Assembly (NCBI GenBank): GCA_002070105.1
Contig: MWCQ01000003.1
Coordinates: forward strand, 143,101-207,100
Direction: 5' to 3'
Length of the DNA: 64,000 bases
Source: Firmicutes bacterium ADurb.Bin193
GTDB taxonomy: Bacteria; Bacillota; Clostridia; Monoglobales; Firm-18
Made by a program: the position numbers and the translations under genes. Below, piece after piece: positions 49,235 to 64,000 of this stretch. How positions within the stretch are numbered: the stretch's first letter is position 1; every line of letters begins with the position of its first letter. Below the pieces are notes generated by a model, which was given only the letters and a program-made list of their open reading frames with translations, ran no database searches and had not been told where the DNA came from.

Positions 49235-49651
49235 TCATAAATCCTTCGTCAGATGAAATGAAAAGCTTGTTATATTCTCTTTTTCAAAATGCACATCCAC
49301 TCCGGCCTCTCTTAATTTCCGAATTGTTGTTAAAAGAAAAATAGTGTTTCTGGCAAAACGGGAAATTGACTTTGTAATAATCAAATCTATTTCGCCGTTA
49401 TATGCCTTCTTAAGCATTTCATTAAGTCCGGGGCGGCTTTCGCTCAAACCTGACACACCGGTATCCGAATATACACCGCAAAACTCATAATTTGAATTTC
49501 TTAATATGTACCGGGTGTAATATTCTATTTGATTTTCCAAAGAGTTTATTTGCAAATCGTGTTTTGTGGATACCCTGACATAGGCGCAAACCCTCTTTTT
49601 CCGCCACGGAAGTTTATTATTTGCTGTTACTTGGACATTTCTTTTTTGCAT
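49235..49651 (-). pseudogene. large serine recombinase, N-terminal catalytic fragment only
   Basis: 138 aa. Contains VCAYVRVSTKHDLQINSLENQ (catalytic Ser) and ITKSISRFARNT. It diverges and stops after FEKENITS; the recombinase and zinc-ribbon domains are missing. Confidence 0.8.
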
Positions 49652-50288
49652 GACTTTTTACCTCGCAATCTATATTCCGCATAAGCTCTGTGCCATCCCG
49701 AAATATGAACAGTACCTTATCTTCGGAAATCACCTTCACAACATTTATAACTGCCTGCCACACCATGTCATCAAATTGGTCGAGCGGGTTTTGGTGTTTT
49801 TGCAGTTCCTTTAAAAACCCTGTAATCTGCAGCCTCTTGGCCGCACATTTGTTTATTTTTGAAATTACCTGTTCCTGCTGCTGTTGCAGCTTCTCATGGC
49901 GTTTTACATATTCATTATATTTTTCATCATAATCCTTTTTATCGATTATAGTCTGTGCATTGGCTGAAATAAGCCTTTCTATGAGGACATTGATCTCTTC
50001 GCATTGTTTGTCGAGTTCTTCCAGTTGCATCACATAGGCGCTGTCATCGGTTATGGCGTCTAGTATAAGGTTGTAGTTTTCGATAATCTCGTCTTTATTG
50101 TCTACGATGCTGTTGAAGGCTTCAACAAACGCCTTTTTGATTGCGTTTTCTTTTAAGGTCGGAGTTGTGCAATATTTTCTTTTCGTAAATTTATTGTTGC
50201 AGTGCCATACAAACGTTTCATACTTGCTGCCTGCATGCCACACCTTCCTTCCGTAAAAACCACCACACCCTCTTGAAACCGCGATTTC
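49617..50288 (-). pseudogene. large serine recombinase, C-terminal fragment only
   Basis: The frame is open from 50288 (..AVSRGCGGFYGRKVWHAGSKYETFVWHCNNKF). It encodes a zinc-ribbon, a coiled coil and a DUF4368-like tail (FDDMVWQAVINVVKV). The catalytic domain is absent. It overlaps the next recombinase start, as in tandem recombinase sets. Confidence 0.75.
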
Positions 50289-50484
50289 TCACGCGAAGCC
50301 CCGCGCCCGATCTGGGGTGAAAGATGGTAGAAATTTAGCCCCCCTACCCCTAAACTTGCAAAAAATCTCTAAAACTTATCACTTCTTTGAATTTCGTGAG
50401 ATTTTTTGCATATATTTTAAGCCGTTTGCGGCATTGTTTTCAAATTGAGATATATACCCTTAGAAAAAAGGTGAACTATTAAAT

Positions 50485-51174
50485 TTATCTATCTGTCAAA
50501 CGAACAATCTGACAATTGACCATTACCCTGTCGAGTAGTGTCTGGCAAAGGTGCTTGTCCTCTACTGCATCTATCCACGCAGATATTTCACGATTGGTAA
50601 TAAAAATTATACTTCTGGTTTCATTCAGAAATGAAATCGCTCGATAAAATGATTGCAGCTCTGCTCTGGTAGGTTCAACATAGAATACATCATCGATAAT
50701 AATTAAGTCACATTCTTTCATATAAGAAAAAGTTGTCTCTGCTTTGGTGTACGTATCTTTTTCTTCTGCTACGGATATAAATGTTTCAAAGGGAACATAG
50801 TAGGTTTTATATCCATTGTTAATAGCCCTCTCTCCAAGCTGAACCGCAAGGCTTGTTTTGCCTGTCCCGCATTTACCCAGCAAGATTATGTTTTGTTCCT
50901 CGTCAACCCACGTTAATTGGTATAGCTGTTTTATCTGCCATTTCAAACCTTTGTTTAAATTGGACTCATCAAATACTTTGTTTGGAAGCTTGCTTGCCTT
51001 TCTCATCTTTATATGTTTTTGTCTGACTCGTAGCTCCAGTTCTTTTTCTAAGACCATCTTAAGATAATCGAGATTGGATAATCTCTCATCATTTAAATCT
51101 ATGTGTCCCTTCGCAACATTCCATAGATTCAGCCTTTGAGCCAGCTCTCGGATTTCTGTTATATCAGCCATCAA
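50485..51174 (-). CDS. istB: IS21-family helper ATPase IstB
   Basis: 229 aa. Walker A LLGKCGTGKTS and Walker B LIIIDDV. Confidence 0.92.
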   Translation of the reverse strand: MMADITEIRELAQRLNLWNVAKGHIDLNDERLSNLDYLKMVLEKELELRVRQKHIKMRKASKLPNKVFDESNLNKGLKWQIKQLYQLTWVDEEQNIILLGKCGTGKTSLAVQLGERAINNGYKTYYVPFETFISVAEEKDTYTKAETTFSYMKECDLIIIDDVFYVEPTRAELQSFYRAISFLNETRSIIFITNREISAWIDAVEDKHLCQTLLDRVMVNCQIVRLTDR

Positions 51175-52630
51175 TTTCCCTCCTTATTTCTTTACATCGT
51201 GTTAAGTGGTTAAAGTACTGTTGTGTCGGCAAAAACTTTCTCGCTATGTGCTCGCCATGCTTATACATAAGATAAGCCAAAAGCTCATATGCATTACAGC
51301 GATTACTTTTTATGCAGTATTGTATCCCTTCCAGCAATTGCTCCATGGTGTAAAACTTCGTCATACGATTTAAGCGAATACAATGGGTATTAAAATATTT
51401 TGGTCGTTCCTGTTCCATCCGTTGAATAAATTCCAATGCAATTTCATGTCCTGCAAAATATTGTTTTATAAGAGCAAGCGAAACTCTGTTCTCTATATTA
51501 CTTTCTTCAGCCTTAAACAATTGGCCGGTTTCTTCTGTTGCGGGATACTTTGCCAATAATTCATTGGTTTCCGTATCATAGAACAGGATAATCTCGCCAT
51601 CATCTTCAATACGAATACGTTTATGTGCATCCATAATTCCTACATCTACCTGATACCGGTTCCCTTTATACCTAATAACTCCGCTTGTATCAAAAGATGC
51701 TACAGTGCTTGATACCTCAAAGTATGGCTTAACATGAATTAAATGCTTTTGTTCTTCCATAAACATTTCTCGGGGTATTTTCTTCGTAATGGTATGTATT
51801 CTACCGTTGCCTTCTCTATCCAACCATGCAAGAGCGGCACTGTTAAGGCTGTCAATTCCGGTATAGATTCTGCCTTCCAGAAAACTTTGCTTCACATATC
51901 CGACAACTTCTTCTATCTTCCCTTTGCTTTGGGGATCCCTCGGCCTGCATAGCGAAACGCTGTAACCTACGCGCCTCACATATTCTTCAAATTCCGGCAC
52001 AAATATGATATTTCCTAAATTTTCGCTGACGATATATACCCTATCAAGATCATATAGGATTGTCTGCGGTCTCCCTCCGAAGTATTTAAAAGCATAATTG
52101 TGGGCTTTGATAGCCTTTTTTGTTGTGAATGGATCAGGCGAAAAGTATACAAATTTCATTCTGCTGTAACTTAAAACCATACAGAAGAAATATACCCGTA
52201 CAATCCGTCCATACATATCTTTAAGTTTATATTGTCCGAAGTCCGCCTGTGCCTCATATCCCGGAGGCAACACTTCTCTTGGAGAGATTGTCCTCGTACG
52301 CTGATACCCATGCTGTTCTCTTAAGGCTTTCATGTAGCGGTAGAAGGTAGCACGTTTAACTTGCAAATCCGGAAAAGCTTCCGTTAATTTTAGATAGATG
52401 TTAGTATCTCGAATTTGTGGGCATAACTTCAATTGCTCCAATATGTACTGGCGGTAATTATCCATATGATGCCTTTCCTGCTCAGCCGCTTTTGCGTAAT
52501 CTTCTTTGCTCATGCTCCAGTACTTACAAACAGAACTGTAGGTGATTCCCAACACCTTTGAAGTTTTTGTACGTGTTAAACCAAGCTCTTTATATTCCTG
52601 AATTTTTTGGTATTGCTCAATACCGATCAT
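51164..52630 (-). CDS. istA: IS21-family transposase IstA
   Basis: 488 aa with an N-terminal HTH and a DDE integrase core (QADFG..., ILYDLDRV). Confidence 0.9.
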   Translation of the reverse strand: MIGIEQYQKIQEYKELGLTRTKTSKVLGITYSSVCKYWSMSKEDYAKAAEQERHHMDNYRQYILEQLKLCPQIRDTNIYLKLTEAFPDLQVKRATFYRYMKALREQHGYQRTRTISPREVLPPGYEAQADFGQYKLKDMYGRIVRVYFFCMVLSYSRMKFVYFSPDPFTTKKAIKAHNYAFKYFGGRPQTILYDLDRVYIVSENLGNIIFVPEFEEYVRRVGYSVSLCRPRDPQSKGKIEEVVGYVKQSFLEGRIYTGIDSLNSAALAWLDREGNGRIHTITKKIPREMFMEEQKHLIHVKPYFEVSSTVASFDTSGVIRYKGNRYQVDVGIMDAHKRIRIEDDGEIILFYDTETNELLAKYPATEETGQLFKAEESNIENRVSLALIKQYFAGHEIALEFIQRMEQERPKYFNTHCIRLNRMTKFYTMEQLLEGIQYCIKSNRCNAYELLAYLMYKHGEHIARKFLPTQQYFNHLTRCKEIRREIDG

Positions 52631-52947: not shown

Positions 52948-53880
52948 TTAAGATAAGCCTGATAAAGACCTCATAACAAGATCAACGTCTTGATTCTCAA
53001 GTTCCTGAATAATATGTATATATGTCTTTTGTGTTGTCGTAATGCTCGCGTGTCCCAAGCGTCTTGCTACACTTGCAATCGAGACACCAGCAAACAACAA
53101 AAGTGATGCATGTGTATGTCGCAAACCATGTACTGAAATAACTGGTATTTTCGCTTTCTTACAATGTCTTTCAAGGATATCGTTAACCGTTGAGTTATAA
53201 ACCTCGCGATTATTTTTTATAAAGATAGGATTATCCGCAGGAAGATTTTTTACAAGTTCTGAAAACTGAATAACCGTCTGCCAATCCATTTGGATTTTTC
53301 TTACAGATGATTTATTCTTGGTAGGCTGAAACCCTCCATTACCTTTATAATCCCAAGTTTTACTTATCGACAAAGACTGATGTGCAAAATCAAAATCCCG
53401 CGGTGTAAGTGCCAATGCTTCGGAAAACCTCATTCCGGTTTTTGCAATTAACAATATAAACCAGTCCCAATTAATCTCATCTTTTAAGTTTAACGATTTA
53501 ATTAGGGTATGAAGTTCGTACTGATTCAAGTATTTTGTCTTTTTGGGACAAGGTTGCTTTCCCTTAATGATTGCCTTTCTTGTTGGATCCCTTTCCACTA
53601 ATCCATCATCTACCGCGTCCTGAATCGCACCTTTGAGTTGATGATGAAAATCCATGGTCGTCTGTCGTTCGTGATAACGTGCGTAATCATTTAGCATTTG
53701 CTGATAAGTGATTCTGTTGAGTTCGCATAATTTCAGGTTAGGAATGAGTTTCTCGAGCCACGAATGTGTCATTAAATACTTATCCATTGTCACTTTACGA
53801 ACTGCCCCCTCCTTATACACCTTAATCCATTGAGCATAATAATCACTAAATAAATCGTCTGGTTTTGTTTTGCTTAGCAT
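52948..53880 (-). CDS. tyrosine site-specific recombinase (phage-integrase family)
   Basis: 310 aa. Contains GMRFSEALAL (Arg), HGLRHTHASLLL (HxxR) and QKTYIH (Tyr). The gene is bracketed by the hsdS inverted repeats. Confidence 0.9.
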   Translation of the reverse strand: MLSKTKPDDLFSDYYAQWIKVYKEGAVRKVTMDKYLMTHSWLEKLIPNLKLCELNRITYQQMLNDYARYHERQTTMDFHHQLKGAIQDAVDDGLVERDPTRKAIIKGKQPCPKKTKYLNQYELHTLIKSLNLKDEINWDWFILLIAKTGMRFSEALALTPRDFDFAHQSLSISKTWDYKGNGGFQPTKNKSSVRKIQMDWQTVIQFSELVKNLPADNPIFIKNNREVYNSTVNDILERHCKKAKIPVISVHGLRHTHASLLLFAGVSIASVARRLGHASITTTQKTYIHIIQELENQDVDLVMRSLSGLS

Positions 53881-54451
53881 TTTTAACCTCCTGTTTGATT
53901 ATTATTTGCTCACGCTGATGAAGGGTGATAAGATTGTCTATATATTTGAAGAAATCGCCAATTTGCTTCTGCTCCTGTGGATTACTCGGCGAGTAAACTT
54001 CAATCTGTGCTAAATCATTAGAGTTAATTGCGGGATAGCTTGTACCGGTACAATTATCCAAAACAACTTTCACGAATCCTTCGTTCTGAACAAGACAGAG
54101 TAAGAATCTTCCGTCTACGAGAGGACGCATTTGTGCGTACCCCGTTGAAAAAACATAGTGTTTATCAGGCTTTTCAAATAAATAATTGTTTTTCTGATAT
54201 GGCCTAACCGTCTGATAAAAAAGATCTCCTGTCTGAGCTAAGCGCTGCGCTCTTGATGGTGCTGTCGCTTTCGCTTCAGTTCGGTGCGAAAGCATCTCTG
54301 TGCCAACTACTGACTCCAGATCGACATACTCAAATACATCCGGCAGCTCAGCTTTTGGATTGAATAATGCCAGCTCATTTAGCTTACGCTGTTCCCAAGC
54401 AAGAGAAAAGAGCCAAGGTTTTCCTTGACTCCCTTGAAACCGATGTTTCAT
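53846..54451 (-). CDS. hsdS: half-size HsdS (single TRD)
   Basis: 201 aa. N-terminal conserved region (AWEQRKLNEL), one TRD, then EQKQIGDFFKYIDNLITLHQRE, and it ends there. The start abuts the hsdR stop and the 3' end overlaps the integrase start. Confidence 0.8.
   Translation of the reverse strand: MKHRFQGSQGKPWLFSLAWEQRKLNELALFNPKAELPDVFEYVDLESVVGTEMLSHRTEAKATAPSRAQRLAQTGDLFYQTVRPYQKNNYLFEKPDKHYVFSTGYAQMRPLVDGRFLLCLVQNEGFVKVVLDNCTGTSYPAINSNDLAQIEVYSPSNPQEQKQIGDFFKYIDNLITLHQREQIIIKQEVKNAKQNKTRRFI
53908..53932. repeat. inverted repeat arm 2 (inside the half-hsdS)
   Basis: TGCTCACGCTGATGAAGGGTGATAAG, partner of 52903-52927. Confidence 0.85.
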
Positions 54452-57617: not shown

Positions 57618-58235
57618 TTACTTTTCGTCTCTGATATTTTCCGTTTTATAGACATTGTATCCCTCATAATGATAGCTTGCGTCAATGCCTTTAATATAGA
57701 CCTCGCGGTCATTGATTTTATCCGTCAAGGCGGCTTTCAAAAGCACCTTGATTTCTACATCTTTAATTGGGCTGCGCTCCATTGCAAGAAGATAATCTTC
57801 CTTCTCGACCTTGCTCCAGTCAATGACCATTTTGAGTTCTTTTTTTAGAATTGCATCCAGCCAAATACGAGTACTTCTGCCGTTACCCTCACGGAAGGGA
57901 TGGGCAATATTCATTTCGACATACTTCTCGATTATTTCATCGAAAGTGGATTGCGGCATTTTTTCAATGTTATCCAGTGCCGCCTTCAGATACATCACCG
58001 GCGCAAAGCGAAAATTGCCCTTTGCAATGTTCACATCACGTATTTTCCCGGCAAAATCATAAATTTCTTCAAACAAATACCTGTGGATCATCGCAAGTCC
58101 TTCAAAGGTTCCGACCGGGAAAGTGTCCAAAAGGCCGGTTTCAAAAAGTTCCAAAGCCTTTTTTTTGCTGATTTTTTCTTCCGCACGGGCAAGTTCGGCA
58201 GGATCCGTAATACCCAGTTTATTTTCTAATGCCAT
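57618..58235 (-). CDS. fic: Fic-domain protein (class III-like, C-terminal inhibitory motif)
   Basis: 205 aa. Canonical [12 protein letters not shown] motif. The C-terminal SYHYEG fits the autoinhibitory (S/T)xxxE(G/N) motif. The gene is wedged between hsdS (17 nt gap) and hsdR (9 nt gap). Confidence 0.9.
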
Positions 58236-58252: not shown

Positions 58253-59464
58253 TCAAACAAACATCTTTTCAAGACATGCTTTTTTAAAATTTTGCAACTT
58301 TTCCAACTTACGCTGATGAAGGGCGATAAGGTTGTCGAGGTTGCGGAAAAAGGTACCGATTTTAGTTTGTTCCTTCAAAGAAGGAACAAAAGTTTTTAAT
58401 TCAGAAAACTCTGTTTTATTTATTATCTGCATAGTTCCGGCTGCAGCTGAACTTTTCATTTTTTCAGACCATAATGCACTTTCTGAAAGTAAAAAATATG
58501 GAAAGTTTTCTTTTTCATTCGGTACTAATCCGTTAATCTGCTGGTTAAAACTGCCCGTAGTACCTAGCATCGTGTTCTTTCCTATACTGGCAATACTTGT
58601 TACTAAAACTGTATTTTGAGGAACAACGCGAGCAACTTTTTGCCCTTCTTCACTTAAACGTTTAGCAGTGTTAAAGGTAATATTCTCAGAAATATCCGTG
58701 GGTGTAACCCAAGGTATTCCATCGTCAGAATAGTATGCTTGAACCTGTGTTGATGGAGTTGAACCTGTAATAATTTCACCAAGTTCCCCCAACTTACGCT
58801 GTTCCCAAGCTTCAGTAAATCCCTTAAAACGAATTTTAGGGACATTGCTTCCGTTTTTTGGAAACATTTTTTCAAGACAAGATTTTTTGATGTTTTTTAA
58901 TTTGTCATACTTACGCTGATGAAGGGCGATAAGGTTGTCGAGGTTGCGGAAAAAGGTACCGATTTTAGTTTGTTCCTTCAAAGAAGGAACAAAAGTTTTT
59001 AATTCAGAAAACTCTGTTTTATTTATTATCTGCATAGTTCCGGCTGCAGCTGAACTTTTCATTTTTTCAGACCATAATGCACTTTCTGAAAGTAAAAAAT
59101 ATGGAAAGTTTTCTTTTTCATTCGGTACTAATCCGTTAATCTGCTGGTTAAAACTGCCCGTAGTACCTAGCATCGTGTTCTTTCCTATACTGGCAATACT
59201 TGTTACTAAAACTGTATTTTGAGGAACAACGCGAGCAACTTTTTGCCCTTCTTCACTTAAACGTTTAGCAGTGTTAAAGGTAATATTCTCAGAAATATCC
59301 GTGGGTGTAACCCAAGGTATTCCATCGTCAGAATAGTATGCTTGAACCTGTGTTGATGGAGTTGAACCTGTAATAATTTCACCAAGTTCCCCCAACTTAC
59401 GCTGTTCCCAAGCTTCAGTAAATCCGGCGAATCGAATAGCCGGTTTTCTCGCTGTTTCAGACAT
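58253..59464 (-). CDS. hsdS: Type I specificity subunit with two identical TRDs
   Basis: 403 aa. Residues of about 14-185 and 215-386 are identical. Conserved regions are FTEAWEQRKLGEL and NLDNLIALHQRK, each present twice. Confidence 0.93.
   Translation of the reverse strand: MSETARKPAIRFAGFTEAWEQRKLGELGEIITGSTPSTQVQAYYSDDGIPWVTPTDISENITFNTAKRLSEEGQKVARVVPQNTVLVTSIASIGKNTMLGTTGSFNQQINGLVPNEKENFPYFLLSESALWSEKMKSSAAAGTMQIINKTEFSELKTFVPSLKEQTKIGTFFRNLDNLIALHQRKYDKLKNIKKSCLEKMFPKNGSNVPKIRFKGFTEAWEQRKLGELGEIITGSTPSTQVQAYYSDDGIPWVTPTDISENITFNTAKRLSEEGQKVARVVPQNTVLVTSIASIGKNTMLGTTGSFNQQINGLVPNEKENFPYFLLSESALWSEKMKSSAAAGTMQIINKTEFSELKTFVPSLKEQTKIGTFFRNLDNLIALHQRKLEKLQNFKKACLEKMFV
58306..59425. repeat. 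517-bp perfect direct repeat, 603-bp period, inside hsdS
   Basis: On my read-through of the printed lines, 58306-58822 equals 59425-58909's interval 58909-59425 at every position. Independent support: track ORFs 58332-58619 and 58935-59222 give the same 95-aa peptide. Confidence 0.9.
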
Positions 59465-59466
59465 AC

Positions 59467-61428
59467 TTATTCACCTCCAAGAAGCTTTTTGAGCTCCGCA
59501 ATACCCTTCATGTCAAATTCATTGCCGGTTAATTCATCTAACATAGCACAAAGGGATGATTCCGTTTCGCGAATCTGTTCTTCCACCTCAAAGAATGTAG
59601 TCTCATACTTCTTTGCCAGCGCATTAAGCTTTAAAACAAATTCGTTCACAATTTTTTTAGGCAACTCAAAAAGACCTGAAAGAATAGGTGTAATCCATTT
59701 TAGTTTAAGCAACTCTTTTACCTGATTATCTGTCAGTTCTTCAATTGCCTTTTTGGTTTTCATTTGAAGCTCAGCCGCTTCTTCTTTCACCTTTTTCTTT
59801 AGAGTTTTTTCTTCTGTGTTTAAAGCATCATATTTTTTTAGTATCTCCAAAACTTCCGGCTCGACTTCATTTTCCTTGATTGCCTTTTTAACGGCAGCAG
59901 GAACAAACGCCGTTTTATCATCATTTACAAAATCCTTATCTTTTTCTTCTTCAGGCAATTCATCCAGCAGGGATTCATATTCAGAGGCAATTTCAGCAAG
60001 TCTGTTTTCGTTTGCTTTCTGCTGTGCAAGAGCATCGTGCAAGAACCTCTCCTGAACAAGTTCAAAAGGAATCACCCTGCCTACCCATCCGTCCTGCACT
60101 TCAATATCCTTGCCGTCCTTTTTCTTGACAATCATATTAGGATCGACCTTTTTGGTGGATTCAAATCCCTCCGTCTGGATTATTTCAAGATCAACGGCAA
60201 TGTTTAGCCATGCGTCATCCAGTATCTGATACGCTTCATATTTATCTACAAGGGGAATGCCATCAAGACTCTCAAAAATCTTTTCGGCAAGTTCATTTTC
60301 TTTCCTTGAAACGTTAATACTTTCCATTCCCGCAATCAATTCATTATACAGGAATTCCTCAAAGCCCTCGAAAGCAGTTTTAAATTTCTGCTCAAAGGAC
60401 TGAATGTCGGTATGCTCGATAACCGCATTTTTAATATCATCTGTATTAAAATGCCAATAAGCGGCAGAATCATCAGCAAAGAGTGCCTTTTTTAGGTTCG
60501 GAAACGCTGACCAGTATGCTGCCAGCTCATCCACTTCGCTTGCAGGAATACCACCGAACATAGAGGTATAAATATCCCAGCTTTCCGGCTTTTCGGAGGA
60601 ATCCACATAACGTGGAATATTGAGGTTATAATCATTCTTACGGATTTCATCGCGGGATACTACCCTTGAGAATTTCTCTACGGAAATGCGCTGTGTCACC
60701 ACATCCACAATCCGTTTTATATCGCAGGCTCGTAATTTGTTATTCTTACCTGCCTTTTCAAATCCTTTTGATGCGTCAATAATAAGTACATCGGTATTGC
60801 TGCGCTTCTGTTTAAGTACCATGATAATTGTAGGAATGCCCGTACCAAAAAAAATATTTGCAGGAAGGCCAATGATGGCATCAATCTTATTATTCTCAAT
60901 CAGGTTCTTGCGAATTTCACCTTCCTCACCGCCACGGAACAGAACGCCATGAGGTAATACAATCGTCATAATACCGTCAGGCTTGACATGATAGAGATCA
61001 TGAAGCAGAAATGCATAGTCTGCTTTGCCTTTTGGTGCAAGGCCATAGTCTTTATAACGAGGATCGGATTCCTTGTCGGAAGGATTCCAATGCTGAGAAT
61101 AGGGTGGATTTGAAACCACCGCATCAACATAAAGAGGGTTATATGTTCCAATAGGATCACTTTCTTCAAAGTAAGGCCAGTCATCCTCCAATGTATCTCC
61201 GTTACGGGTAACTATGTTATAATGGTTAATTCCTCGCATAATAAGATTCATACGAGTAAGGTTATAGGTGTTTTCCTTAAGCTCCTGTGCGTAGTATTTA
61301 ATTTTATCGCTGTTGCCCATATATTTTGCAACGCTTTTACCAATATTGATAAGTAATGAGCCGGAGCCGGAGGTCGGGTCTATAAAGACGCTGTCTTTGA
61401 TACAAACAGAAAAAGCCTTCTCTGGCAC
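59467..61428 (-). CDS. hsdM: Type I methyltransferase subunit, 5'-truncated (N-terminal domain and motif X missing)
   Basis: 653-aa ORF starting at GTG. Motif I (FIDPTSGSGSLL) sits at residue 15 and motif IV (NPPYSQHW) is present. A long helical C-terminal extension follows. The normal 150-200 aa N-terminal region is absent. Confidence 0.85.
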   Translation of the reverse strand: MPEKAFSVCIKDSVFIDPTSGSGSLLINIGKSVAKYMGNSDKIKYYAQELKENTYNLTRMNLIMRGINHYNIVTRNGDTLEDDWPYFEESDPIGTYNPLYVDAVVSNPPYSQHWNPSDKESDPRYKDYGLAPKGKADYAFLLHDLYHVKPDGIMTIVLPHGVLFRGGEEGEIRKNLIENNKIDAIIGLPANIFFGTGIPTIIMVLKQKRSNTDVLIIDASKGFEKAGKNNKLRACDIKRIVDVVTQRISVEKFSRVVSRDEIRKNDYNLNIPRYVDSSEKPESWDIYTSMFGGIPASEVDELAAYWSAFPNLKKALFADDSAAYWHFNTDDIKNAVIEHTDIQSFEQKFKTAFEGFEEFLYNELIAGMESINVSRKENELAEKIFESLDGIPLVDKYEAYQILDDAWLNIAVDLEIIQTEGFESTKKVDPNMIVKKKDGKDIEVQDGWVGRVIPFELVQERFLHDALAQQKANENRLAEIASEYESLLDELPEEEKDKDFVNDDKTAFVPAAVKKAIKENEVEPEVLEILKKYDALNTEEKTLKKKVKEEAAELQMKTKKAIEELTDNQVKELLKLKWITPILSGLFELPKKIVNEFVLKLNALAKKYETTFFEVEEQIRETESSLCAMLDELTGNEFDMKGIAELKKLLGGE

Positions 61429-61453
61429 ATAAGTGCTGAAAAAGGCTTGAAAT

Positions 61454-61510
61454 AAAGGGCTTTCGAGGTTCTGCTGTGTTCTACAGCAGAGCTTCGGAAG
61501 CCCTTTTTCT
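61454..61510. terminator. long hairpin terminator abutting the hsdM start
   Basis: AAAGGGCTTTCGAGGTTCTGCTGT-GTTC-TACAGCAGAGCTTCGGAAGCCCTTT followed by TTCTGTTT. T-rich on both strands. Confidence 0.7.
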
Positions 61511-61620
61511 GTTTATTCGATTGCCGCTGGCCGGTTCTGTGGTCTTCGGAACTTACCCCTCAAAACCGGCGGTCGGAGGAATAATTAAAAAGTGTGGAAT
61601 AATTAAAAGGTTCAATCAGC

Positions 61621-62463
61621 CTAAAGCAATTCCTTCAGCGTTTTTCCATTTGAATCCTTCCAGAGGGCATTACCGCTCAAAGATGCCCCGCCGACAAAAC
61701 CAGCTGCAGATGACGGACTTGAGAATAAAACGTCTGATATAAGAATGCCGTTTTTATCAATCTTGTCGGCGTACTTATTTCGATCTTTTATCGCTCTTTC
61801 AGGGCAACTCTTTGTAACAGTCGGATTAATTGCGCTTCCTTTGAAGACCACGAAACCTTCGCTGGTTCTTTTACCAGAAGCCTTTCCTTTTCCATACTCC
61901 AGATAAAGGACCGGCTCATCATTCTCTGCTTCCGGAGCAGGTGCAAAAGGCTCAAAAACTCTATGGCCAAGCGTTCCCATTACGATCTTTGCATAGTCAA
62001 TGAACTCTTCAAGTTCGCTTTCGGTTTCCTCTGTGATGTTTCCGGGATTTGGGTCATTTCCGTTTTTCACAGAATACCGTCCGGCCTGAACAGCCATATT
62101 GCAGAACCGATTTTCAAGGTAGCTTATCTCAGTCGGACCAAATGAATTATTCGTCGTTGTGAACATAATGGCTTCAGTCCAATAATCAATAGAGGTATGC
62201 GGTTCTTGGATTCGGAGCAGAAGGCCTTTTCCATTTTTACGCACTCCGGCCTGACCTATATACACAACAGCATTATCAGATTTATCGGTGCCGAACAGGA
62301 AGTAGACTCCGCTTTGTTTGAGAATATCTAAGTCCTTACATTTATCCAACGCAGTACGAGGAACCTTATATGCAATTCCGGTCCAGTTGGCAAGAGAACA
62401 CTTGATTCTTCCGCTCGGTTCGCCATCCATTAAAAAAAGCTTGATTGTTTTACTTCTCGGCAT
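61621..62463 (-). CDS. GIY-YIG nuclease domain plus DUF4357-like C-terminal domain protein
   Basis: The track ORF extends to 62532. ATG 62463 (MPRSKTIKLFLMDGEP) lies 6 nt after AGGAGG. GIY-YIG hallmarks are GVYFLFG, VVYIGQA and ISYLENRF. The C-terminal half (FVVFKGS...GASLSGNALWKD) resembles DUF4357, from memory. Confidence 0.7.
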   Translation of the reverse strand: MPRSKTIKLFLMDGEPSGRIKCSLANWTGIAYKVPRTALDKCKDLDILKQSGVYFLFGTDKSDNAVVYIGQAGVRKNGKGLLLRIQEPHTSIDYWTEAIMFTTTNNSFGPTEISYLENRFCNMAVQAGRYSVKNGNDPNPGNITEETESELEEFIDYAKIVMGTLGHRVFEPFAPAPEAENDEPVLYLEYGKGKASGKRTSEGFVVFKGSAINPTVTKSCPERAIKDRNKYADKIDKNGILISDVLFSSPSSAAGFVGGASLSGNALWKDSNGKTLKELL

Positions 62464-62510
62464 GCTATTCCTCCTACTTAATCCACAAACAAGTCCGGGA
62501 TTATTCTTAT

Positions 62511-63005
62511 TCACTTCGAGATGCGCTGCCATTTTTCTATAGAGCGCAATATTTCATCTTCATACTTGACTCGAAACACCGTTCTAAATGCACCGAGTGA
62601 ATACTGTATTTGTTGAGATAACGCATCTCGAGGGAAATCCTTTATGAGCACTTTTATGGATCGGCTGTGCTGAAGACACTCGTTTTGATCTGCGTTGTAT
62701 TCGTAATCTCCGGTAACTGTGGCAAGGACATACGTATGGCTTCCCTTTGAAGGGATTAGGACATAATCGCCAATTTGAATCTTCTGAACGAAATCGAGAA
62801 TCTGTCCAACCCAAGTTGCAACAGAAGTTCTATTATCTGTGCACTTCTCATTACCAACAGCAAGTCGGAGTTCTTCCTTTGTCTTTATGGCCTTAAAGTC
62901 ATAATGATATCCATCCCACGGAAGAAATACCCTCTGAGATTCCAGTATTGCATCGTAATATATTGAATTACGTCCAGCTCTGATTAACCACATCATATGC
63001 ATCAT
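62511..63005 (-). CDS. stand-alone domain protein resembling the N-terminal module of Mrr-type restriction proteins
   Basis: 164 aa (true start probably the 4th or 5th Met, MWLIRAGR). Pattern: MWLIRAG...GDYVLIPSKGSHTYVLATVTGDYEY...HSRSIKVL...RDALS...SLGAFRTVFRV. No nuclease motif is present and the ORF ends right after the module. Confidence 0.55.
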   Translation of the reverse strand: MMHMMWLIRAGRNSIYYDAILESQRVFLPWDGYHYDFKAIKTKEELRLAVGNEKCTDNRTSVATWVGQILDFVQKIQIGDYVLIPSKGSHTYVLATVTGDYEYNADQNECLQHSRSIKVLIKDFPRDALSQQIQYSLGAFRTVFRVKYEDEILRSIEKWQRISK

Positions 63006-63040
63006 TCCTCGCTTGAAACGAATTCCAGACCAGAATCTAA

Positions 63041-64000
63041 CTAAAACAACGTTAGCTGTGTATAGCCGTATACTTTGCCGTCATCTATAGCAAAGTCCGA
63101 AATATACTCTTTGAATTCGCCAAGTTCCATTGTCCCATACTGTTCACACATTTCGCTTGCCTTCAAATAACAATCTAAAAGCGAAAAAGTACCAGTTTCT
63201 AAAATCTTGTTCATGGATTCAACGACGGCATTTTTCAGAAGTTTCGTCTTTTTCTTGTATCCATCCTTGATGATGTACATCCCTGCCTTCTTGTCATAAT
63301 CAAAAATGGAACTAATAATAGAATCCTTATCTGCAAGCAGCCGATAATCCATATTATTTTTGAGCCATGCGATGATAAATTCTCTATCAAGTATAGTTTT
63401 GGCGATTCTTCCTTCTCGTGAATTAGCGACAAAACACAGATGTGACAGCACAGGAGATAAATCCTTTGATACTTTGACCTCCGTGTTAAGAGTGTAGACA
63501 GAATACACGTCACTAATATAGCTGGAATTGATCGACATTTGCGCCTTTGAGGAAATAACAGCAGGTATTTGATAAAAGACGCTTTCACAGACAAACCCAT
63601 TGTTTTGAAGCGCAGCAATCAGAGCCGTCCAAGCCCTCATGTCGTTGTTATTGAATGTAATAAGAAGTTTACCCGTTTCTGTCAAATGCCGAGTAAAGCA
63701 ACACATATACTCATCAAGCTTTTGGGAATAATTCTCCCATGAGGCCGATTTGTCCATTCTGTCACTTACGCTGATATCTTCATCGGAACAAGGAATATCC
63801 TTGAGAAAGCTATTCCAAATATTCGAGAACTCTGTATATGGAACGCTATCCCCATAGGGAGGATCTAAAAAGATTAGATCCGCCTTAAGATCAGAGTATT
63901 CGTTGCGATTCAATAGCTCCAATGAATTCCCGTGAATGATTTTAGCTTCAGCATTGATAGGAGTTTGCGAGAGGGCTACTAAGGCCTTTTTAAACTTCGA
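63041..64000 (-). CDS. DNA (N6-adenine/N4-cytosine) methyltransferase, 5' end outside window
   Basis: The track starts it at a TTG, but my translation keeps the frame open to position 64000 (SKFKKALVALSQTPINAEAKIIHGNSLELLNRNEYSDLKADLIFLDPPYG). Motif IV DPPY is present. No GxG motif occurs in the 270 aa after it, so motif I should lie upstream, outside the window. Confidence 0.75.
   Translation of the reverse strand, partial: SKFKKALVALSQTPINAEAKIIHGNSLELLNRNEYSDLKADLIFLDPPYGDSVPYTEFSNIWNSFLKDIPCSDEDISVSDRMDKSASWENYSQKLDEYMCCFTRHLTETGKLLITFNNNDMRAWTALIAALQNNGFVCESVFYQIPAVISSKAQMSINSSYISDVYSVYTLNTEVKVSKDLSPVLSHLCFVANSREGRIAKTILDREFIIAWLKNNMDYRLLADKDSIISSIFDYDKKAGMYIIKDGYKKKTKLLKNAVVESMNKILETGTFSLLDCYLKASEMCEQYGTMELGEFKEYISDFAIDDGKVYGYTQLTLF

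What the first reader, a model, noticed from the sequence alone, without database searches (positions are those of the whole stretch)
61621..64000. Methyltransferase + stand-alone Mrr-N-like domain protein + GIY-YIG/DUF4357 nuclease: a compact cassette that looks like an undescribed restriction-type defence module
Three co-directional minus-strand genes are separated by gaps of 35 and 47 nt. The GIY-YIG gene has a clear RBS (AGGAGG 6 nt upstream of ATG 62463), and a strong private terminator follows the cassette (61454-61510). They sit directly upstream of a Type I R-M operon in a low-GC island.

Gene 1 has the DPPY motif IV of an amino-MTase. Gene 2 is 164 aa and carries only the module that I remember as the N-terminal part of Mrr-type restriction proteins. 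In those proteins the module is normally fused to a PD-(D/E)xK nuclease; here the ORF ends right after it. Gene 3 supplies a different nuclease fold, GIY-YIG (GVYFLFG, VVYIGQA, YLENRF), fused to a DUF4357-like domain.

So a normally fused sensor-nuclease appears split, with the nuclease exchanged and a cognate MTase attached. I know of no named system with this composition.
Basis: partly seen in the sequence, partly recalled or inferred. Interest (0 to 1): 0.75.

Follow-up and report, generated by a model that had tools for sequence, protein, structure and literature searches.

The report
Two adjacent defence modules, not one
The three genes are real, but they are the tail of a restriction-modification operon (a DNA methylase plus a small modified-base "reader" protein that regularly accompanies such methylases) followed by an unrelated, self-contained nuclease gene swapped into a cassette slot, so this is an ordinary defence-island junction and not a new three-gene system.

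Summary
All three minus-strand ORFs, their spacing, the RBS and the hairpin are present as described. The domain calls are largely right. The system-level reading is not.

Gene 1 is the C-terminal half of a ~625-aa Type II amino-methyltransferase. In relatives 92-97% identical it is the last methylase of a four-gene Type IIS-like operon.

Gene 2 is an intact member of a conserved stand-alone family, DUF8426 (~160 aa). It has a YTH/EVE-like modified-base-reader fold. In 41 non-redundant loci it lies directly beside a (D/N)PPY methyltransferase of a Type III, Type IIS, BREX-1 or DUF499/Hma-type system. It is never directly followed by a GIY-YIG gene.

Gene 3 is a complete PADLOC PDC-S14 protein: a putative GIY-YIG domain plus DUF4357. 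A 91%-identical copy sits alone among housekeeping genes in hundreds of contigs. In the window it is bracketed by a conserved 5' leader and a 233-bp terminator element that elsewhere bracket GmrSD + SEC-C.

Of 41 loci with a gene 3 relative, one also has DUF8426 and none has the gene 1 methylase. The neighbouring hsdM lacks its first ~214 residues.

The lead worth keeping is the recurrent methylase-reader pairing. Interest is moderate to low.

The parts
63041..64000 (-). C-terminal 319 aa of a ~625-aa Type II amino-methyltransferase (the 'M2' of a Type IIS-like operon). DPPY motif IV is at residue 46 of the fragment. The N-terminal half lies beyond the window.
   Evidence: PADLOC PDLC03367 positions 308-584 of 633, E 2e-74. 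97% aa identity to the 625-aa methylase of L001/L014 and 93% to that of L015. The full-length relative scores E 1e-184 and carries PF01555. DPPY confirmed.
62511..63005 (-). Stand-alone DUF8426 (PF28530) protein of 161-164 aa with a YTH/EVE-like modified-base-reader fold. It is a conserved operon partner of (D/N)PPY DNA methyltransferases.
   Evidence: 52 homologous clusters, nearly all 152-181 aa and carrying PF28530; three shorter entries (97-115 aa) cover only about half the query. 11 invariant columns. AF2 pLDDT 90.6. Foldseek against the PDB: YTHDF2 YTH domain, E 1.7e-4, prob 1.0, TM about 0.5, then EVE proteins and THYN1. Neighbourhood survey.
62471..62501 (-). Conserved 31-nt 5' leader/RBS element immediately upstream of gene 3. 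The same element precedes GmrSD in L001-type loci and precedes the solitary GIY-YIG/DUF4357 gene in L027-L034.
   Evidence: No chance matches in shuffles.
61621..62463 (-). Complete PDC-S14-type protein of 280 aa. Residues ~50-140 are a putative GIY-YIG nuclease domain. The C-terminal region carries a DUF4357 (RAMA-like) module. It is a candidate single-protein, Type IV-like restriction nuclease.
   Evidence: PADLOC PDLC04925 positions 13-294 of 301, E 7e-106. Pfam DUF4357 at 234-276. 5913 homologues, NCBI name 'GIY-YIG nuclease family protein'. Solitary 91%-identical copy in a housekeeping context. Invariant G52, Y54, Y68, R75, R84, E87, E117, N118, N134, N136.
61379..61620 (-). Conserved 3' element: a tandem TTTTAATTATTCC repeat, then hairpins including the 20-bp-stem terminator at 61457-61503 and a second hairpin followed by a U-tract. 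It is shared at 95% identity with the stretch after GmrSD + SEC-C in L001/L037 and at ~80% with the stretch after the solitary GIY-YIG gene in L027.
   Evidence: No Rfam family reaches its gathering score.
59467..61378 (-). Context: a 5'-truncated hsdM. Homology starts at D|PTSGSG (motif I). The first ~17 codons of the annotated ORF (GTG 61428) come from the shared 3' element.
   Evidence: PDLC03022 positions 215-857 of 857 and TIGR00497 positions 227-498 of 515. Breakpoint read from the alignment with L001.

Best explanation
The interval is a junction between two independent defence modules in a rearranged, mobile-element-rich island.

Module A (genes 1 and 2) is the 3' end of a Type IIS-like restriction-modification operon. 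In close relatives this operon reads: nicking-endonuclease-type large subunit (622 aa), a 203-aa protein, methylase M1 (419 aa), methylase M2 (625 aa), DUF8426. Gene 1 is M2. Its DPPY motif points to an N6-adenine (or N4-cytosine) methylase, which is inference. Gene 2 is a small YTH/EVE-like reader. I infer that it binds a flipped modified base, most likely m6A. I further infer that it acts in trans as an accessory of the methylase/restriction complex, either reporting the methylation state of a site or directing the system to modified foreign DNA. This is the role Bell et al. 2020 (PMC7641849) proposed for stand-alone EVE proteins in R-M loci.

Module B (gene 3) is an autonomous single-gene unit with its own leader/RBS and tandem terminators. 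It joins a putative GIY-YIG nuclease to a DUF4357 binding module. Elsewhere DUF4357 is fused to GmrSD, McrB and T5orf172. By analogy gene 3 is a Type IV-like, modification-dependent nuclease. It occupies a cargo slot defined by conserved flanks and probably arrived by homologous exchange at those flanks. In relatives the slot holds GmrSD + SEC-C.

Shown here: gene identities, the fold of gene 2, the neighbourhood statistics, the shared flanks and the hsdM truncation.
For: Gene 1/gene 2 pairing:
- The gene 1 fragment is 93-97% identical to the M2 methylase of nickase-203aa-M1-M2-DUF8426 operons.
- In 41 non-redundant stand-alone DUF8426 clusters, 29 of the 39 with a visible upstream gene have a DNA methylase directly upstream. 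Three more have one directly downstream. Gaps run from -4 to +59 nt, with one exception of 137 nt (L053).
- The systems are Type III with SNF2 and DUF4391, Type IIS-like, BREX-1 (PglZ and BrxL confirmed) and DUF499/Hma-type.
- 42 of the 47 long Mod-, M2- and Eco57I/PglX-type methylase ORFs in these loci carry DPPY or NPPY; the seven M1-type methylases, which never directly flank DUF8426, do not.
- Fold of gene 2: pLDDT 90.6, YTH/EVE top hits.

Autonomy of gene 3:
- Full-length PDC-S14 match.
- P0063, 91% identical and seen on 287 contigs, lies between carD/rpmH/rnpA/yidC and a LysR gene with no methylase or DUF8426 nearby.
- Of 41 loci with a gene 3 relative, one also has DUF8426 and none has a gene 1-type methylase.

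Cassette flanks.

Partners of DUF4357 in the literature: PMC4619093 and PMC11090510. GmrSD-DUF4357 fusions were seen here in L054 and L058.
Against: - The upstream part of module A (M1, the 203-aa protein, the endonuclease) is outside the window, so its presence and integrity in this genome are unknown.
- The same gene 2/gene 3 junction recurs in two other assemblies: P0001, 99% identical, where the next gene overlaps by 22 nt; and L035, 92% identical, where the 5' element follows directly. The adjacency is therefore stably inherited in this lineage, and co-transcription is possible across a 47-nt gap with no terminator between the genes.
- L047 has a 59%-identical GIY-YIG/DUF4357 gene two genes downstream of a DUF8426.
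- The GIY-YIG assignment is not confirmed by any profile or structure search.
- No experiment exists for DUF8426, PDC-S02 or PDC-S14 in the literature searched.
Confidence: 0.75

Rival explanations
1. One reading: methylase + DUF8426 sensor + GIY-YIG/DUF4357 nuclease form one three-gene restriction-type system. The sensor, normally fused to Mrr_cat, works in trans with an exchanged nuclease, and the methylase protects self DNA.
For: The genes are co-directional with gaps of 35 and 47 nt and no terminator between them. DUF8426 is the N-terminal module of DUF8426-Mrr_cat proteins. The junction is conserved in 92-99% relatives. One distant locus (L047) has both families.
Against: The trio is absent from 40 of the 41 gene 3 loci and from all 41 non-redundant DUF8426 clusters as a direct neighbour. 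Gene 3 already has its own binding module (DUF4357) and occurs alone in a housekeeping context at 91% identity. The methylase belongs to a different operon with its own endonuclease in relatives. Gene 3 sits between flanks that carry other cargo elsewhere.
Confidence: 0.07
2. Decayed remnant. Genes 1 and 2 are what is left of a broken R-M operon (an orphan methylase plus a reader), stranded next to an inserted cassette and a truncated hsdM. Only gene 3 would still act in defence.
For: hsdM is truncated exactly at the cassette's 3' flank. IS21, recombinase fragments and a half hsdS lie nearby. Some relatives show fragmented nickase/M1/M2 genes (L083) or a truncated DUF8426 (L072).
Against: Within the window, gene 1 is open for 320 codons and 97% identical to intact relatives. 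Gene 2 is full length with all invariant residues. Nothing in the window shows decay of module A.
Confidence: 0.18

Closest known systems
Stand-alone EVE-domain proteins associated with R-M systems (Bell, Wolf & Koonin 2020, PMC7641849)
   Same: A small single-domain PUA-superfamily (EVE/YTH-like) reader encoded inside methylase-containing restriction operons. That paper reports stand-alone EVE with Type I R-M and with SNF2-nuclease + COG1743 methylase + DUF499 systems. One DUF8426 locus here (L054) is of that DUF499 type.
   Different: DUF8426 is a separate Pfam family. Its top fold hits are YTH (m6A readers) rather than EVE. The contexts found here were not found described in the papers searched: Type III with SNF2/DUF4391, nickase-type Type IIS, and BREX-1 between PglX and PglZ.
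PADLOC PDC-S02 (DUF8426-Mrr_cat single-gene candidate; Type IV-like Mrr family)
   Same: Gene 2 matches the N-terminal half of five PDC-S02 models, with the best hit at E 2e-35. It shares the reader domain.
   Different: There is no Mrr_cat PD-(D/E)xK domain. The ORF belongs to a conserved ~160-aa stand-alone family. It is not the Pfam Mrr_N winged helix of E. coli Mrr.
PADLOC PDC-S14 (GIY-YIG-like + DUF4357 single-gene candidate)
   Same: Gene 3 matches over its full length with E 7e-106. It has the same size and architecture and occurs as a solitary gene.
   Different: None found; it is a member. The family itself is uncharacterised and appears only in survey papers.
Heterodimeric Type IIS / nicking-endonuclease R-M systems with two methylases
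   Same: In relatives, the gene 1 orthologue follows a 622-aa protein matching PADLOC 'Type II nicking endonuclease' (E 2e-167), a 203-aa protein and a second methylase.
   Different: No solved-structure relative was found by sequence for the 622-aa or the 203-aa protein. The extra DUF8426 gene is not part of the textbook system. The endonuclease genes are not visible in this window.
GmrSD-DUF4357 and McrB-DUF4357 Type IV enzymes
   Same: The same C-terminal DUF4357 module is attached to a nuclease or NTPase effector (PMC4619093, PMC11090510).
   Different: The effector here is a putative GIY-YIG domain rather than DUF262/DUF1524 or the McrB GTPase.

Membership tests
Pfam Mrr_N (PF14338, winged helix of E. 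coli Mrr) | Match to the Mrr_N profile | tested here: not met
   No Pfam hit at E <= 0.1 for gene 2. The fold is YTH/EVE-like, not winged helix.
Mrr-type Type IV nuclease (PDC-S02) | Reader domain fused to a Mrr_cat PD-(D/E)xK nuclease in one polypeptide | tested here: not met
   Gene 2 covers only model positions 2-147 of 346. Nearly all 52 close clusters are 152-181 aa; three shorter entries cover only half the query. Fusions exist as separate genes of 333 aa.
DUF8426 (PF28530) | Match to the family profile over the whole domain | tested here: met
   50 of the 52 homologues, including the 99%-identical P0001, carry a precomputed PF28530 hit. The local Pfam copy lacks this model.
YTH/EVE (PUA-like) modified-base readers | Beta-barrel PUA-like fold similar to YTH/EVE structures | tested here: met
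   Model pLDDT 90.6. YTHDF2 YTH domain at E 1.7e-4, prob 1.0, TM 0.49-0.56. EVE proteins 2ar1, 1zce and 2gbs and THYN1 also hit.
YTH/EVE (PUA-like) modified-base readers | Aromatic pocket that holds the flipped modified base, and binding of modified nucleic acid | not tested
   W30, F72 and Y101 are invariant and W6 and W65 nearly invariant, but their positions in the model could not be inspected. Binding needs experiment.
GIY-YIG nuclease superfamily | GIY...YIG strands plus the catalytic Arg, Glu and Asn in register on a proper alignment | tested here: inconclusive
   The motifs GVYFLFG, VVYIGQA, R84, E87/H89, E117-N118 and N134/N136 are invariant. The strand/helix order in the model fits, but at pLDDT < 70. 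hhalign against nine phage I-TevI-type domains puts GVY/YIG in register but gives probability 1.7%. Pfam, NCBIfam and PDB searches are negative. NCBI names relatives GIY-YIG.
DUF4357 (PF14267) | Profile match above Pfam's gathering score | tested here: met
   46.8 bits against a cut-off of 38.4, residues 234-276. All 24 aligned relatives match.
PADLOC PDC-S14 | Full-length match, and occurrence as a single-gene unit | tested here: met
   E 7e-106 over positions 13-294 of 301. Solitary in a housekeeping neighbourhood.
Type II amino-methyltransferase (PF01555 / PDLC03367) | Motif IV (D/N/S)PP(Y/F) and AdoMet-binding motif I | tested here: inconclusive
   DPPY is present and the model match is E 2e-74. 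The N-terminal half with the PF01555 core (residues 20-77 in L001) lies outside the window.
Type IIS-like nickase/M1/M2 operon | Endonuclease subunit genes and a second methylase upstream in the same operon | not testable with these tools
   The sequence beyond 64000 is not available and exact-protein look-ups found no longer contig. These genes are present in relatives whose M2 is 92-97% identical.
Type I R-M (neighbouring operon) | Complete HsdM, HsdS and HsdR | tested here: not met
   HsdM lacks about 214 N-terminal residues. HsdR and HsdS are full length.

The most novel reading that the evidence does not exclude
Stand-alone DUF8426 is a shared, exchangeable methyl-adenine-sensing subunit. 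Four otherwise unrelated methylation-based immune systems (Type III with SNF2/DUF4391, nickase-type Type IIS, BREX-1, DUF499/Hma) would have recruited it independently next to their N6-adenine methylase. It would take part in telling self from non-self, for example by reading the methylase's own mark or a phage hypermodification and gating the effector. In this window it might also hand targets to the adjacent GIY-YIG/DUF4357 nuclease.
Probability: 0.22. Interest if true: 0.65.

Novelty: new member of a known kind. Interest (0 to 1): 0.3.

Why it matters
As posed, the finding would have added a new three-gene restriction system. The evidence says it is not one, which spares cloning effort on a trio that is a neighbourhood accident.

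What remains useful is a clear genomic rule: a ~160-aa YTH/EVE-like protein sits directly beside the (D/N)PPY methylase in several major methylation-based defence systems, including BREX, whose mechanism for telling self from non-self is still unresolved. A trans-acting methyl-mark reader would be a concrete, testable component.

The shared leader and terminator flanks around different Type IV-like cargo also illustrate how single-gene defence cassettes may be exchanged within islands.

Tried and rejected
1. Exact-sequence look-ups of gene 2 (164 aa) and gene 3 (280 and 303 aa), meant to extend beyond the window, found nothing on record. The 99% relative P0001 is on a 724-bp contig with no DNA returned.
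2. PDB sequence searches with profiles of gene 2, gene 3 and the gene 3 N-domain gave only noise. The 622-aa and 203-aa proteins of L001 have no PDB relative, so I do not name a specific prototype enzyme or recognition site.
4. hhalign of the gene 3 family against T5orf172 single sequences and against nine phage GIY-YIG homing-endonuclease domains was not significant.
5. Rfam on 61000-64000 gave only sub-threshold hairpin matches.
6. I considered that gene 2 is a truncated PDC-S02 pseudogene. I rejected this because the stand-alone form is a conserved family with its own invariant residues and contexts.
7. I considered that the whole cassette had inserted into hsdM. I rejected this because the shared 3' element ends exactly at the hsdM breakpoint while upstream homology continues into an R-M operon, with no hsdM 5' part in view.
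Full report
**Observation.** The gaps are 35 and 47 nt. AGGAGG lies 6 nt before ATG 62463, and DPPYG is in gene 1. A hairpin with a 20-bp stem is at 61457-61503, inside a 242-nt stretch that folds far better than shuffles (z = -7.0). The family consensus and the 99%-identical P0001 begin at MMW, so gene 2 probably starts at 62996. GC is only mildly lower over 40-64 kb.

**Gene 1.** The 319 residues in the window match positions 308-584 of the 633-position PADLOC Type II methylase model PDLC03367 (E 2e-74). Only the C-terminal half is in the window. That half is 97% identical to a 625-aa PF01555 methylase in L001-L003 and L014 (Parabacteroides MAG), 93% to L015 (Clostridiales MAG) and 95% to L035. 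In those loci the gene is the fourth of a co-directional operon:
- a 622-aa protein matching PADLOC 'Type II nicking endonuclease' (E 2e-167);
- a 203-aa protein with no family;
- a 419-aa methylase;
- the 625-aa methylase, followed by a 159-aa DUF8426 gene.

The same order recurs in L036, L037, L053, L072, L082 and L083. Whether the upstream genes exist in this genome cannot be seen.

**Gene 2.**
- It has no hit in the local Pfam or NCBIfam copies. It matches only the N-terminal halves of PADLOC PDC-S02 models (for example positions 2-147 of 346, E 2e-35). Full PDC-S02 proteins are DUF8426+Mrr_cat fusions.
- It is not a truncation. 52 clusters down to 38% identity are nearly all 152-181 aa and carry PF28530 = DUF8426 (three shorter entries cover only half the query), and 11 columns are invariant.
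- An exhaustive profile search finds 4991 representatives. The best ~25 are stand-alone. Longer forms of ~330-350 aa follow.
- The AF2 model is confident (pLDDT 90.6). Its best PDB matches are YTH domains of YTHDF2, the m6A readers (E 1.7e-4, prob 1.0, TM about 0.5). EVE proteins (2ar1, 1zce, 2gbs) and THYN1 bound to 5mC DNA come next.
- So 'N-terminal module of Mrr-type proteins' is right. It is a PUA-superfamily reader, however, and not the Pfam Mrr_N winged helix.

**Context of stand-alone DUF8426.** I collected loci from exact-protein look-ups, GTDB genomes, JGI metagenomes and IMG/VR and classified the neighbours.
- Among 41 clusters non-redundant at 90% identity, 29 of the 39 with a visible upstream gene have a DNA methylase directly upstream: Type III Mod 16, Eco57I/PglX-type 10, M2 3. 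Three more have the methylase directly downstream.
- Gaps to the methylase run from -4 to +59 nt, with one exception of 137 nt (L053). The next gene is most often the Type III Res subunit, overlapping by 4 or 22 nt.
- The systems are:
  - SNF2-DUF4391-(variable gene)-Mod-DUF8426-Res, often followed by a DUF8426-Mrr_cat gene;
  - the nickase-type operon above;
  - BREX-1, ordered BrxC-PglX-DUF8426-PglZ-BrxL;
  - a DUF499/Hma-type system (L054);
  - an Eco57I-type methylase plus a T5orf172-helicase (L020).
- 42 of the 47 long Mod-, M2- and Eco57I/PglX-type methylase ORFs in these loci carry DPPY or NPPY; the seven M1-type methylases, which never directly flank DUF8426, do not. By established motif knowledge this is typical of N6-adenine enzymes.
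- Bell, Wolf & Koonin 2020 already reported stand-alone EVE proteins with Type I R-M and with SNF2-nuclease/COG1743/DUF499 systems. They proposed that such proteins direct restriction to modified DNA. The 2026 BREX survey mentions reader modules but, in the passages found, not this gene.

**Gene 3.**
- It matches PADLOC PDC-S14 over its full length (E 7e-106) and Pfam DUF4357 above threshold. It belongs to a family of more than 5900 proteins that NCBI names 'GIY-YIG nuclease family protein'.
- The 91%-identical P0063, seen on 287 contigs, lies by itself between carD/rpmH/rnpA/yidC/jag/mnmE and a LysR gene. The gene therefore functions, or at least persists, without a methylase or DUF8426.
- 32 further relatives are on IMG/VR contigs.
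- DUF4357 is known as an add-on to GmrSD, T5orf172 and McrB proteins. I saw GmrSD-DUF4357 fusions in L054 and L058, and a 104-aa stand-alone DUF4357-like ORF in L047. Two relatives give a weak RAMA hit, and the C-terminal region matches the tail of PADLOC's DUF3780 model.
- The GIY-YIG call rests on invariant motifs (G52, Y54, Y68, R75, R84, E87, E117, N118, N134, N136) and a compatible secondary-structure order in a low-confidence model. Every profile or fold test was negative or non-significant.

**Do the three genes belong together?**
- Of 41 loci with a gene 3 relative, only L047 also has DUF8426, two genes away after Res. None has a gene 1-type methylase. Of 75 loci with a gene 2 relative, only L047 has gene 3.
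- The exact junction recurs only in near-identical relatives: P0001 (99%), where the next gene overlaps by 22 nt as the 303-aa ORF does here; and L035 (92%), where the leader element follows directly.

**The junctions explain the adjacency**.
- Window 62548-64000 aligns with L001 across M2 and DUF8426.
- Window 62471-62501 is a 31-nt leader/RBS element. In L001, L014 and L037 it precedes GmrSD. In L027-L034 it precedes the solitary GIY-YIG gene.
- Window 61379-61611 is 95% identical to the stretch that follows GmrSD + SEC-C in L001 and L037, and ~80% identical to the stretch after the solitary gene.
- So a slot with conserved flanks carries different Type IV-like cargo in different genomes.
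- Identity with L001 ends at ...GTCTTTATAGA. The next base is hsdM at D|PTSGSG, so hsdM has lost about 214 N-terminal residues and its annotated start is borrowed.
- IS21, a recombinase fragment and a tyrosine recombinase with a half hsdS lie just beyond.

**Verdict.**
- The best reading (confidence 0.75) is two independent modules side by side. One is the tail of a Type IIS-like R-M operon with its conserved YTH/EVE-like accessory. The other is an autonomous PDC-S14 cassette.
- The one-system reading keeps about 0.07. The reading that module A is a stranded remnant keeps about 0.18.
- The components are catalogued (Pfam DUF8426, PADLOC PDC-S02/S14/MTase_II), and the theme of stand-alone readers in R-M loci is published. 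I therefore rate this a new member of a known kind, interest 0.3.
- The part worth following up is the methylase-reader rule across Type III, Type IIS, BREX-1 and DUF499 systems.

Noticed in passing
window 62471-62501 and 61379-61620; L001 7167-7197 and 9640-9872; L027 5963-5993 and 6872-6982: The same short leader/RBS element and the same structured terminator element bracket different cargo in different genomes: GIY-YIG/DUF4357 here and in L027, GmrSD + SEC-C in L001 and L037. This looks like a swappable single-cargo defence slot. The 3' element starts with a tandem TTTTAATTATTCC repeat and contains two terminator-like hairpins.
   Followed up: partly
window 59467-61428: hsdM of the adjacent Type I operon lacks about 214 N-terminal residues. 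Its annotated GTG start and first ~17 codons come from the cassette's 3' element, so the Type I system is probably inactive.
   Followed up: yes
window 58253-59464: hsdS consists of two exactly repeated halves. The two target-recognition domains are identical, and the 95-aa antisense ORFs at 58332-58619 and 58935-59222 are also identical. This implies a palindromic bipartite recognition site or a recent internal duplication.
   Followed up: no
window 52948-54451 and 57618-58235: A tyrosine recombinase gene overlaps a half-length hsdS (201 aa) just downstream of hsdR, the layout of phase-variable Type I specificity shufflons. A Fic-domain gene sits between hsdR and hsdS.
   Followed up: no
window 49617-52630: An IS21-type pair (istA 51164-52630, istB 50485-51174) lies next to a 208-aa fragment carrying only the zinc-ribbon of a serine recombinase. 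These mark the island as rearranged.
   Followed up: no
L001 6511-7116; L015 6929-7534; L058 (204-aa ORF after Res): A Tag-like adenine DNA glycosylase gene (PF03352) directly follows DUF8426 in the closest relatives and follows Type III Res in L058. A glycosylase next to an adenine methylase and a YTH-like reader could be a restriction glycosylase. It is absent from the window.
   Followed up: no
L006 6001-6486 and 9579-10580 (also L007-L012, L038, L039): The same Type III operons carry two DUF8426 paralogues. One is the stand-alone copy between Mod and Res. The other is a DUF8426-Mrr_cat fusion right after Res, ~37% identical over 101 aa. This raises the question of whether the free reader competes with or complements the fused one.
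   Followed up: no
window 62511-64000 compared with L001 4997-6480: The methylase half is 97% identical in protein to L001, but the adjacent DUF8426 is only 78% identical. In L035 the figures are 95% and 92%.
   Followed up: partly
L047 7748-8062; L039 7151-8230: The variable slot between DUF4391 and Mod in the SNF2/Type III operons can hold a 104-aa stand-alone DUF4357-like ORF (L047) or a Schlafen AlbA_2 protein (L039). These are further small reader or effector modules inside these operons.
   Followed up: no
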